Made by a program: the position numbers and the translations under genes. The notes beneath the pieces are model-generated. The model did not search any database, was not told the origin of the DNA, and saw only the letters and a list, made by a program, of their open reading frames with translations. From Methanosarcinales archaeon (GTDB taxonomy: Archaea; Halobacteriota; UBA148; JAUWXC01), in contig CP061209.1 in assembly GCA_026016205.1 (NCBI GenBank), forward strand, positions 634,330 through 698,329: 64,000 bases of DNA. The letters run 5' to 3'. The stretch's first letter is position 1, and every line of letters begins with the position of its first letter. Shown in pieces: positions 14,383 to 62,373 of this stretch.

Positions 14383-15650
14383 GCACATCAAGAATTCCCG
14401 GATTTTACAAATTAGATGTACAAGAGCGGTTAAGCGTGGTGAAAAAACTCACACACCTGGATGAGGCATCTATTGACAGCATCAGTAAAACTGGAGCACT
14501 GAGCGTAGACCAGGTAGACAAGATGGTTGAAAATGCAATAGGCATCATGGAAGTGCCTTTGGGTATTGCCACCAATTTCCTGGTTAACGGAAAGGATTAC
14601 CTCATCCCCATGGCAACAGAGGAGCCGTCGGTCATCGCAGCAGCCAGCAACGCTGCCAAAATAGCAAGAGAGAAGGGTGGTTTTTCTGCCAGCACTACAG
14701 AGCCGATAATGATAGGGCAAATCCAGATGATGTGCGAGACGCCAGAAGAGGCGAAGAGTGCCATTCTGGGTGCAAAAGAGGAGATTTTGGCATTGGCCAA
14801 CGAGCAGAATCCCGTTTTGGTGAAGTTTGGCGGTGGAGCAAAGGATATAGAGGCAAGGATTATTGAAACTCCTGCTGGCAAGATGGTGGTCACGCATTTG
14901 ATGGTCGACTGTAGGGATGCAATGGGCGCCAATGCAGTCAACACGATGTGCGAGGTGGTAGCGCCTTTAATCGAAAAGCTGACCACTGGTAAAGTATACC
15001 TCAGGATAATTTCAAATCTCGCGGTCAAACGATTGGCAAGAGCAAAGGCGACTTTCTTCAAAGAGGCGTTAGGTGGAGAGGGTGTCGTAGATGGCATTAT
15101 TATAGCACAAAGATTCGCAGAGTCGGATGCGTACAGGGCAGCGACCCATAACAAAGGGATAATGAACGGCATCTCTGCAGTGGCGCTGGCGACCGGGAAT
15201 GACACCAGGGCAGTAGAGGCGGGTGCACATGCATATGCGTCCTTTTCCGGCAGATACAGACCTCTGACGACCTACGAGAAAAATGAGGATGGCGATTTAG
15301 TCGGCGCCATTGAACTGCCCATCGCTGTCGGTACTGTTGGTGGCGCCACAAAGGTGCATCCCACCGCAATGGCCAATATGAAAATTTTAGGAGTGAAAAC
15401 TGCCTCTGAGCTGGCACAGGTAATAGCATCAGTCGGCTTGGCTCAAAACCTTGCTGCGTTGAGAGCACTTTCCACGGAGGGCATACAGAGAGGACATATG
15501 TCCCTTCATGCGAGAAACATAGCAGTCGTGGCAGGCGCAACCGGGGATTTAGTCGAGGAAGTTGCGAGAATTATGACAGAGGAAGGGAAAATACGAGTAG
15601 AAAGAGCTAAGGAGATTCTTAATGGACTCTCCAAAAAGGGACAAAAATGA
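14379..15650 (+). CDS. hmgA: HMG-CoA reductase, class II (bacterial type)
   Basis: [52 protein letters not shown] and [15 protein letters not shown]. These are class II signatures as in the Pseudomonas mevalonii enzyme. Confidence 0.9.
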
Positions 15651-27422: not shown

Positions 27423-27522
27423 TAGTCCCGGGCGGATTCGAACCGCCGTCGCGGGCTTTCTTCACAACCCTTAAAAAGGTTGTGCCAAAGGCCCGCAGGA
27501 TTGACCACTACCCTACGGGACT
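27423..27522 (-). tRNA. tRNA-Gln(UUG) with a canonical 27-nt intron (plus coordinates ~27458..27484)
   Basis: Reverse complement AGTCCCG TA GGGT..ATCC .. CGGGC CTTTGG[CACAACCTTTTTAAGGGTTGTGAAGAA]A GCCCG .. GGCGG TTCGAAT CCGCC CGGGACT A. The BHB is clean: central helix CTTT/GAAG, 3-nt bulges GGC and AAA, inner helix ACAACC/GGTTGT. Confidence 0.85.
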
Positions 27523-27752: not shown

Positions 27753-27880
27753 TGGACCGGTCGGGATTTGAACCCGAGGCTTATAGGCGCAGTCAAAGCG
27801 CTCTCTACCAATAAGGATGTCATGCTCTTTCAGACCATGACATTTGCCAAGGTAGCGATCTACCCCTGATCTACCGGCCC
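27753..27880 (-). tRNA. tRNA-Ala(GGC) interrupted by two introns: 34 nt at 37/38 (27811..27844) and 22 nt at 45/46 (27781..27802)
   Basis: Reverse complement GGGCCGG TA GATC AGGGGTA GATC G CTACC TTGGCA[34 nt]T GGTAG AG[22 nt]GCC TCGGG TTCAAAT CCCGA CCGGTCC A. It has the G3:U70 Ala identity pair. The mature length is 72 nt, and both inserts show bulge(3)-helix(4)-bulge(3) geometry. Confidence 0.7.
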
Positions 27881-27988
27881 GAGTATATTCTTGAATGGCA
27901 AGATTTTACAATAAATCTATCGGTGAGGGGCTTTTTATATAAAGAAAACTTTAACTATATGCTGCCCTAACTCTGTGGCAATTCATCT

Positions 27989-28080
27989 GGGCCCGTAGCT
28001 TAGTCTGGTTGGAACTCGTAAGAGCAATATGCGCACGGCTGATAACCGTGAGGTCGGGCGTTCAAATCGCCCCGGGCCCA
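27989..28080 (+). tRNA. tRNA-Ile(GAU) with a 17-nt non-canonical intron in the D-arm (28014..28030)
   Basis: GGGCCCG TA GCTT AGTCTGGTTG GA[ACTCGTAAGAGCAATAT]GC G CACGG CTGATAA CCGTG AGGTC GGGCG TTCAAAT CGCCC CGGGCCC A. Removing the insert restores D-stem GCTT/GAGC. BHB: GTTG/CAAT helix, bulges GAA and ATG, inner CTC-GTAA-GAG hairpin. Confidence 0.7.
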
Positions 28081-28085
28081 CTATT

Positions 28086-62288: not shown

Positions 62289-62373
62289 CGCCGCCAACAG
62301 GACTCGAACCTGTGACAACCTGGTCTCTGCATCTTTTAACAGCCAGGTACTCTACCAACTGAGTTATGGCGGC
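62289..62373 (-). tRNA. tRNA-Asn(GUU) with a 12-nt intron at 37/38
   Basis: Reverse complement GCCGCCA TA ACTC AGTTGGTA GAGT A CCTGG CTGTTA[AAAGATGCAGAG]A CCAGG TTGTC ACAGG TTCGAGT CCTGT TGGCGGC G. Central helix CTGT/GCAG; bulges TAA and AGA. Confidence 0.8.

What the first reader, a model, noticed from the sequence alone, without database searches (positions are those of the whole stretch)
27989..28080. tRNA-Ile(GAU) with a 17-nt intron inside the 3' strand of the D-stem
- The 92-nt gene has a normal acceptor, anticodon arm (CACGG CTGATAA CCGTG) and T-arm, but the D region is 17 nt too long.
- Excising ACTCGTAAGAGCAATAT (28014-28030) joins ...GGTTGGA to GCG CACGG. This restores D-stem GCTT/GAGC, G26 and a 75-nt mature tRNA.
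- The insert is presented in a BHB-like fold: 4-bp helix GTTG/CAAT, 3-nt bulges GAA and ATG, and an inner CTC-GTAA-GAG hairpin with a GNRA-type loop.
- A D-stem (about 23/24) intron is a rare non-canonical position.
- Together with tRNA-Ala, four of the nine tRNA genes in this window are interrupted.
Basis: partly seen in the sequence, partly recalled or inferred. Interest (0 to 1): 0.6.

Follow-up and report, generated by a model that had tools for sequence, protein, structure and literature searches.

The report
D-stem intron in isoleucine tRNA gene
The only isoleucine (GAU) tRNA gene of a small-genome relative of the methanogen Methanocella carries a real 17-base protein-spliced intron inside its D-stem; relatives have kept it at the same spot, and it is a rare position for a well-known kind of archaeal intron.

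Summary
Window 27989-28080 (+) is a tRNA-Ile(GAU) gene (Rfam tRNA, 54 bits) with extra sequence in its D region.

Removing 28014-28030 gives a 75-nt tRNA with every stem fully paired. The insert sits in a 3-4-3 bulge-helix-bulge fold, and both cuts fall between bulge bases 2 and 3. That is the same rule a canonical intron in this window obeys.

The comparative evidence is strong:
- 30 distinct tRNA-Ile(GAU) genes carry a 16-35-nt insert at exactly this site. They come from the organism's own order, Methanocella spp., peat-bog relatives, one Aenigmatarchaeote and two Asgard archaea.
- The central helix is 100% paired, with compensating changes in 3 of 4 pairs. All 3 inner-helix pairs counted also show compensating changes.
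- A sister family and other relatives have the exact empty site, GGTTGGA|GCGCACGG.

The gene is single-copy. The genome encodes an ordinary alpha'2 splicing endonuclease and the RtcB ligase.

The weak point is the outer helix, which is only G-C plus G.U here and one pair in most relatives.

Verdict: a real intron, and a new member of a known kind. Interest is modest.

The parts
27989..28013 (+). Exon 1 of tRNA-Ile(GAU): acceptor 5' strand, U8-A9, D-stem 5' strand GCTT, D-loop, and G22-A23 of the D-stem 3' strand
   Evidence: Rfam alignment. Cloverleaf score is 31 of 31 after excision. Identical or near-identical exon in orthologues.
28014..28030 (+). 17-nt BHB intron ACTCGTAAGAGCAATAT at Sprinzl position 23/24
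   Evidence: The boundaries are unique: neither can slide without changing the product. They match the empty site GGTTGGA|GCGCACGG in G004, G017 and G037. The 17-mer occurs only once in the genome.
28031..28080 (+). Exon 2: G24-C25 of the D-stem, G26, anticodon arm (anticodon GAT at 28041-28043), variable loop, T arm, acceptor 3' strand, discriminator A
28008..28011 (+). Central helix H, 5' strand GTTG (D-loop G19-G21). It pairs with 28025-28028.
   Evidence: 100% paired in 17 distinct sequences, with 3 of 4 pairs showing changes on both sides.
28025..28028 (+). Central helix H, 3' strand CAAT (the intron's 3' part)
   Evidence: Variants seen in relatives: GTCG/CGAC, GCCG/CGGC, GTTA/TAAT, GTTC/GAGT, GTTT/GAAT.
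28012..28014 (+). 5' bulge GAA. The 5' splice site lies between 28013 and 28014.
   Evidence: The cut between bulge bases 2 and 3 was calibrated on the tRNA-Gln intron at 27423-27522 (sequence). GA is invariant in all 30 orthologues.
28029..28031 (+). 3' bulge ATG. The 3' splice site lies between 28030 and 28031.
   Evidence: Same rule. The third base G (G24) is invariant.
28015..28024 (+). Inner helix h' CTC/GAG capped by GTAA
   Evidence: Predicted in both the MFE and the centroid fold. The three pairs next to the bulge are 98% paired across relatives, all with compensating changes. Length and sequence vary freely: 2-11 bp, and introns of 16-35 nt.
28006..28007 (+). Weak outer helix h, 5' strand (U17a, G18). 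It pairs with C25 and G26 at 28032-28033.
   Evidence: G18-C25 is invariant, but both bases are conserved for tRNA reasons anyway. The 17a-26 pair forms in only 7 of 17 sequences. Adding these 2 bp costs +2.7 kcal/mol in the nearest-neighbour model.

Best explanation
This is the single functional tRNA-Ile(GAU) gene of the organism. It is interrupted by a 17-nt archaeal bulge-helix-bulge intron between positions 23 and 24, inside the 3' strand of the D-stem.

Shown here:
- The exons make a perfect 75-nt tRNA.
- The insert is held in a 3-nt bulge / 4-bp helix / 3-nt bulge fold. In that fold D-loop bases G19-G21 pair with the 3' end of the intron, and a short intron hairpin forms the inner helix.
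- The geometry, but not the sequence, is conserved with compensating changes in relatives.
- The splicing endonuclease (alpha'2 type) and the RtcB ligase are encoded.

Inferred:
- In the precursor the D-arm cannot form, because half of its 3' strand lies on each side of the intron.
- The precursor instead adopts the BHB fold, which is the most stable of the tRNA-frame conformers I evaluated.
- The EndA dimer cuts after A23 (28013) and before G24 (28031).
- RtcB joins the halves, and only then do the D-stem and the G18/G19 tertiary contacts form.

The intron was probably gained once in the common ancestor of Methanocellaceae, the peat-bog 'bog_38' lineage and this small-genome order. It was later lost precisely in one sister family.
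For: - Gene and insert: Rfam tRNA 54 bits with the insertion in the D region. The best cloverleaf arises only with excision of 28014-28030.
- Cleavage rule: it matches the canonical tRNA-Gln intron of the same window (read directly).
- Empty sites: G004, G017, G037 and G032 read GGTTGGAGCGCACGG, or GGTTGGAGCGCTCGG in G032.
- Recurrence: 30 of 33 exon-defined insert-bearing tRNA-Ile genes obey strict 3-4-3 geometry.
- Covariation: score 0.709 against 0.253 for shuffles (0 of 500 reach it), and at most 0.141 for slid partners. H is 100% paired and h' 98% paired.
- Phylum scan: present in 40 of 401 genomes, confined to 4 families. The reversed-pattern control gave 0.
- Single copy.
- Machinery: EndA is a 354-aa protein with N-C-N-C domain order, collinear with the A. 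fulgidus alpha'2 enzyme. RtcB is intact.
- Energies: the tRNA frame with H and h' gives -34.5 kcal/mol, against -29.1 for a formed D-stem with the intron bulged out.
Against:
- The outer helix that should close the 3' bulge is only G18-C25 plus U17a.G26 here, and a single pair in most relatives. It is unfavourable in the energy model.
- Published in-vitro work reports that alpha'2 enzymes need a strict hBHBh' motif, and that the A. fulgidus enzyme handles a D-loop HBh' intron poorly (PMC3239211, PMC5829648).
- The unconstrained minimum-energy fold of the precursor (-37.1 kcal/mol) is not the BHB fold. The same holds for the mature tRNA, whose unconstrained fold also lacks the D-stem and anticodon stem, so this says little.
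Confidence: 0.9

Rival explanations
1. The extra 17 nt are not removed. The mature tRNA keeps an enlarged D region with an extra mini-hairpin.
For: No RNA data were available. The inner hairpin is stable in all folds.
Against: - Insert length (16-35 nt) and sequence vary freely, while the 3-4-3 splice geometry and the flanking exon bases are fixed. That is the signature of selection for excision, not for a structural role.
- A sister family lacks the insert exactly.
- With the insert retained, the D-stem conformer is the least stable one evaluated.
Confidence: 0.03
2. It is an intron, but with other boundaries. One option is the D-stem GCTT/ATGC that the Rfam alignment implies. Another is a 20-nt excision beginning after gene base 16 (window 28005-28024).
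For: cmscan pairs GCUU with AUGC. The 20-nt alternative scores 29 in my cloverleaf scoring.
Against: - The Rfam pairing carries a U-U mismatch and does not model introns.
- The alternative loses a D-stem pair and shortens the D-loop to 7 nt.
- Intronless orthologues fix the junction as GGTTGGA|GCG.
- Only 28013|28031 places both cuts between bulge bases 2 and 3.
Confidence: 0.03
3. The gene is a decaying pseudogene, or the insert is an assembly artefact.
For: ARAGORN misreads the gene as tRNA-Ala(agc).
Against: - It is the only tRNA-Ile(GAU) gene in a one-contig genome, so AUU and AUC decoding depends on it.
- An independent assembly of the same genus (G001) has the identical sequence.
- All stems are perfect.
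Confidence: 0.02

Closest known systems
[quoted passage not shown] 2007-2009; reviewed in PMC4090602 and PMC4033280), including D-arm introns of Thermoproteales and Asgard archaea (bioRxiv 10.64898/2026.10.13.758758)
   Same: - A short intron outside position 37/38.
- Presented in a 3-4-3 bulge-helix-bulge fold.
- Cuts fall in the two bulges.
- Removed by EndA and joined by RtcB.
- Standard tRNA finders miss or miscall the gene.
   Different: - The host is a member of Halobacteriota with an alpha'2 endonuclease. This group was summarised in the 2014 reviews as having only canonical-position introns.
- Here the intron is old and vertically kept in one tRNA, rather than part of a lineage-wide burst.
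- I could not confirm whether position 23/24 appears in the published site lists.
The orthologous tRNA-Ile(GAU) intron of Methanocella arvoryzae MRE50, M. conradii and Methanocella sp. MCL-LM
   Same: - Same tRNA and same splice junctions (GA|...|GC).
- Same BHB architecture.
- Both gene copies in M. arvoryzae carry the intron.
- Same alpha'2 EndA architecture.
   Different: - Different intron sequence and length (20-26 nt).
- The central helix is GTCG/CGAC instead of GTTG/CAAT.
- The 17a-26 pair is absent.
- Methanocella genomes have few interrupted tRNA genes, 4-5 of about 50 (PMC3146512). This genome has 22 of 40.
Methanopyrus kandleri pre-tRNA-Glu(UUC) D-loop intron (HBh' type; PMC5829648)
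   Same: A euryarchaeal tRNA with an intron in the D region whose motif lacks a solid outer helix.
   Different: - M. kandleri has an (alpha-beta)2 enzyme.
- Its D-loop intron is removed inefficiently in vitro, including by the A. fulgidus alpha'2 enzyme.
- Here both 3-nt bulges are formally present, and the host enzyme is alpha'2.
ARMAN-2 (Ca. Micrarchaeum) disrupted tRNA set with epsilon2 EndA (PMC3239211)
   Same: A small-genome archaeon of about 1 Mb with more than half of its tRNA genes interrupted.
   Different: - ARMAN-2 has a special three-unit enzyme with an extra loop and many relaxed motifs.
- This genome has a plain alpha'2 enzyme.
- 19 of its 23 introns sit at 37/38.

Membership tests
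Archaeal BHB (EndA-dependent) tRNA intron | Two 3-nt bulges on opposite strands, separated by a 4-bp helix | tested here: met
   GTTG/CAAT flanked by GAA and ATG. The same geometry is seen in 30 of 33 exon-defined orthologues.
Archaeal BHB (EndA-dependent) tRNA intron | Cuts between bulge bases 2 and 3 leave exons that join into a canonical tRNA | tested here: met
   The 75-nt product has all 21 stem pairs, U8, A14, GG, U33 and a purine at 37. It equals the intronless orthologue junction.
Archaeal BHB (EndA-dependent) tRNA intron | The helices are maintained by compensating substitutions | tested here: met
   6 of 9 pairs show changes on both sides. Covariation is 0.709 against 0.253 for shuffles (0 of 500 reach it).
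Archaeal BHB (EndA-dependent) tRNA intron | The genome encodes the splicing endonuclease and the RtcB ligase | tested here: met
Archaeal BHB (EndA-dependent) tRNA intron | The intron is absent from the mature RNA | not testable with these tools
Strict hBHBh' subclass (the substrate class reported for alpha4 and alpha'2 enzymes) | An outer helix h closes the 3' bulge, and an inner helix h' closes the 5' bulge | tested here: inconclusive
   - h' is present: 3 bp here and 2-11 bp in relatives.
- h is only G18-C25 plus U17a.G26. The second pair forms in 7 of 17 sequences.
- h costs +2.7 kcal/mol in the energy model.
- It could stack on the adjoining anticodon stem; that is inference.
Mobile (transposed) tRNA intron families, as in Thermoproteales | Intron sequence shared with introns at other sites in the same genome | tested here: not met
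   The 17-mer has no other copy within 1 mismatch, and the 2-3-mismatch hits are at chance level. A different hairpin family is shared by other introns of this genome.
Self-splicing group I or group II intron | A catalytic RNA core | tested here: not met
   The insert is only 17 nt. Rfam finds nothing but tRNA here.

The most novel reading that the evidence does not exclude
In the clade made of Methanocella, the peat-bog lineage and this order, a plain alpha'2 splicing endonuclease routinely removes a D-stem intron from the only tRNA-Ile(GAU). The outer helix of that intron's motif is reduced to one or two pairs, so it is effectively an HBh'-like substrate.

This would show that the textbook link between enzyme architecture (alpha4/alpha'2 = strict motif, canonical site) and intron type does not hold in vivo. 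It would also fit this order's intron load of about 55% of tRNA genes without any special enzyme loop.
Probability: 0.3. Interest if true: 0.5.

Novelty: new member of a known kind. Interest (0 to 1): 0.3.

Why it matters
For annotation: the essential tRNA-Ile(GAU) of this genome is miscalled as tRNA-Ala(agc) by ARAGORN. Pipelines that do not model D-arm introns will mis-describe it, which makes the tRNA set look incomplete or wrong.

For biology: this is a clean, old and vertically inherited non-canonical intron in a euryarchaeal lineage with an alpha'2 endonuclease. It has a natural series of variants (16-35 nt, eight different central helices) and a natural precise deletion. That makes it a convenient substrate series for testing what alpha'2 enzymes really require around the 3' bulge.

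It does not reveal a new mechanism.

Tried and rejected
- tRNAscan-SE and SPLITS are not available. I wrote my own strict-BHB plus cloverleaf scorer. The first version, which relied on ARAGORN to judge spliced candidates, gave too many false solutions and was dropped.
- Whole-precursor minimum-energy folding does not return the BHB or even a cloverleaf. It behaves the same for the mature tRNA, so I used structure-specific energies instead.
- I looked for a published description of the Methanocella tRNA-Ile intron or of site 23/24. The M. paludicola genome paper gives only counts (PMC3146512), and Sugahara et al. 2007 is not held. Prior description therefore remains unverified.
- I considered a special endonuclease with a CSL- or ASL-type loop. 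The catalytic repeat is collinear with the A. fulgidus alpha'2 EndA, with only short indels of up to 5 residues and no loop of that size. I did not model the structure.
- I considered whether the intron belongs to the hairpin family shared by other introns here. It does not.

Full report
**The organism**

The window is C1:634330-698329 of a one-contig archaeal genome of 987,146 bp with 46% G+C. It carries an archaeal SRP RNA.

A contig of the same genus is deposited as 'Methanocellales archaeon CSMAG_2511'. Members of a sister family include 'Methanocellaceae archaeon UBA148'.

One same-phylum relative, G031, has exactly 3,179,916 bp. That is the published size of Methanocella arvoryzae MRE50 (PMC3146512). 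The organism is therefore a small-genome relative of Methanocella within Halobacteriota.

**The observation**

Rfam's tRNA model matches 27989-28080 (+) at 54 bits and places a 21-nt insertion in the D region. ARAGORN instead calls a tRNA-Ala(agc), reading part of the insert as an anticodon loop.

Reading the sequence gives:
- acceptor GGGCCCG/CGGGCCC;
- anticodon arm CACGG-CTGATAA-CCGTG, with the anticodon at 28041-28043;
- T arm GGGCG-TTCAAAT-CGCCC;
- D-stem 5' strand GCTT.

Removing 28014-28030 (ACTCGTAAGAGCAATAT) joins GGTTGGA to GCGCACGG. The result has D-stem GCTT/GAGC, G26 and 75 nt.

In a scoring of all strict-BHB excisions, this one reaches the maximum of 31, with all 21 stem pairs. 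The next alternative scores 29. The boundaries cannot slide, because the bases on either side differ.

**The splice motif**

I calibrated the cleavage rule on the canonical 27-nt intron of tRNA-Gln(UUG) at 27423-27522 (sequence). There the helix CTTT/GAAG is flanked by bulges GGC and AAA, and both cuts fall between bulge bases 2 and 3.

Applying this rule to the Ile gene gives:
- helix GTTG (28008-11) / CAAT (28025-28);
- 5' bulge GA|A (28012-14);
- inner hairpin CTC-GTAA-GAG;
- 3' bulge AT|G (28029-31).

A local fold recovers the helix, the bulge and the hairpin.

Energies of the conformers that keep the acceptor, anticodon and T arms:

| Conformer | kcal/mol |
|---|---|
| BHB fold (H plus h') | -34.5 |
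| No D-region pairing | -33.8 |
| D-stem formed, intron bulged out | -29.1 |

**Comparative evidence**

A BLAST of the gene against 40 relatives, and a pattern scan of one genome per species, gave many tRNA-Ile(GAU) genes with extra sequence in this region.

I selected genes by exon context only: TAGCTYAG, 8 nt, GA, insert, GCRCNCGGCTGATAACC. That gave 33 distinct genes. Thirty obey the strict 3-4-3 rule at the same junction. The other three are false matches of the regular expression whose intron lies elsewhere.

The thirty come from:
- the organism's own genus and a sister family;
- Methanocella species, including complete genomes;
- peat-bog MAGs (bog_38, fen_29, SPRUCE);
- one Aenigmatarchaeote;
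- two Asgard archaea.

Introns are 16-35 nt long. The central helix appears as GTTG/CAAT, GTCG/CGAC, GCCG/CGGC, GTCG/CGAT, GTTA/TAAT, GTTA/TAAC, GTTC/GAGT and GTTT/GAAT.

On a 37-column alignment of the 17 distinct motif sequences, with the variable loop replaced by a fixed linker, one search shows:
- the central helix is 100% paired, and 3 of 4 pairs change on both sides;
- the three inner pairs next to the bulge are 98% paired, all with compensating changes;
- the covariation score is 0.709, against 0.253 for shuffles (0 of 500 reach it) and at most 0.141 for slid partners.

**Empty sites**

G004 belongs to a sister family of the same order. Its tRNA-Ile(GAU) reads ...GGTTGGAGCGCACGG..., with no D-region insert. 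It carries instead an intron of about 190 nt at 37/38.

G017 and G037 also have the uninterrupted junction, and G032 the same junction with one exon-2 base different (GCGCTCGG). This fixes the boundaries without relying on any motif.

G002 and G003, of the organism's own genus, carry both the D-stem intron and a 37/38 intron of about 150 nt.

**Distribution**

In 401 genomes spread over the phylum (121 genera), the 23/24 intron occurs in 40 genomes of 7 genera. It is found in only four families: the organism's own, one sister family, the peat-bog family and Methanocellaceae. The reversed-pattern control found nothing.

The simplest reading is one old gain with a precise loss in family f2. The Aenigmatarchaeote and Asgard cases are more likely independent gains at a site that suits the motif. 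I did not test this.

**Function and machinery**

The gene is the only tRNA-Ile(GAU) in the genome, so it must be matured.

The genome encodes one EndA of 354 aa with N-C-N-C domain order. It is collinear over its length with the A. fulgidus alpha'2 enzyme, with no large insertion in the catalytic repeat. RtcB is intact. Methanocella, the peat-bog lineage and the sister families have the same EndA architecture.

**The weak point**

The outer helix that should close the 3' bulge is G18-C25 plus U17a.G26 here. The second pair forms in only 7 of 17 sequences. Adding the two pairs costs +2.7 kcal/mol in the energy model.

Published work states that alpha4 and alpha'2 enzymes need a strict hBHBh' motif (PMC3239211). 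It also reports that the A. fulgidus enzyme removes a D-loop HBh' intron of M. kandleri poorly (PMC5829648).

C25-G26 runs directly into the anticodon stem, so the short outer helix could stack on that stem and mimic a longer helix. This is inference. Whether these alpha'2 enzymes tolerate a minimal outer helix is the one open mechanistic question here.

**Context in this genome**

My census of the 40 Rfam tRNA hits finds 22 interrupted genes and 23 introns, 19 of them at 37/38. The non-canonical ones are:
- Ile at 23/24;
- Arg(CCU) at 29/30;
- Leu(GAG) in the D-loop;
- the second intron of Ala(GGC) at 45/46.

Methanocella has 4-5 interrupted genes of about 50 (PMC3146512).

Several canonical introns share a hairpin, AACCTTTTT...AAAAAGGTT. 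Five of its nine genome-wide matches lie inside tRNA genes, which make up 0.39% of the genome. The Ile intron is not part of that family.

**Limits**

- No RNA data could be consulted.
- tRNAscan-SE and SPLITS were not available.
- I could not verify whether the Methanocella intron or the 23/24 site has been explicitly described.

**Verdict**

It is a new member of a well-known kind, of modest interest.

Noticed in passing
whole genome (C1); window genes at 27423-27522, 27753-27880, 27989-28080, 62289-62373: 22 of 40 Rfam-detected tRNA genes are interrupted (23 introns, 19 at 37/38). The only EndA is a plain alpha'2 type. Reviews give under 10% for Euryarchaeota and called 56% in ARMAN-2 extraordinary. 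Relatives show a gradient in hits longer than 90 nt: M. arvoryzae 4 of 50, G018 at least 9 of 40, G005 at least 12 of 37.
   Followed up: partly
genome C1:244420-244439, 566379-566401, 594365-594388, 804681-804698, 15071-15093 (outside the window); similar stretches in the tRNA-Gln intron at window 27465-27490: A hairpin AACCTTTTT...AAAAAGGTT, often followed by GATCAAAA, recurs in introns of different tRNA genes. Five of nine regex hits lie inside tRNA genes, which make up 0.39% of the genome. This suggests an intron family that has spread between tRNA genes.
   Followed up: partly
L150 31-301 (G004) and L007 1501-1744 (G002): Relatives carry a 150-190-nt intron at 37/38 of tRNA-Ile(GAU). It holds the same hairpin and a conserved GTCCTACATTCGC...AGTAGGAC stem. 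G004 has lost the D-stem intron, while G002 and G003 have both. The content of this long intron was not analysed.
   Followed up: no
genome C1:594340-594455 (+), outside the window: tRNA-Leu(GAG) appears to carry a 31-nt strict-BHB intron in the D-loop (about 20b/21) with a 10-bp inner helix. This is a second D-arm intron in the same genome.
   Followed up: partly
window 27989-28081: ARAGORN annotates this gene as tRNA-Ala(agc), taking the intron's GAGC region for an anticodon loop. Automated annotation could therefore report a spurious tRNA-Ala and a missing tRNA-Ile.
   Followed up: yes
window 27933-27961: Two A/T-rich TATA-like boxes, TTTTTATATAAA (27933-27944) and TTTAACTATATG (27950-27961), lie 28-56 nt upstream of the tRNA-Ile 5' end. 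They sit in the divergent spacer shared with tRNA-Ala(GGC). Which one serves which gene was not resolved.
   Followed up: no
L066 (Aenigmatarchaeota MAG), L105 (Heimdallarchaeota MAG), L112 (Asgard MAG): Distant archaeal phyla also have a BHB intron at exactly 23/24 of tRNA-Ile(GAU). Their central helices are similar (GTTG/CAAT, GTTA/TAAT). This could be recurrent gain at a favoured site or transfer; it was not tested.
   Followed up: no
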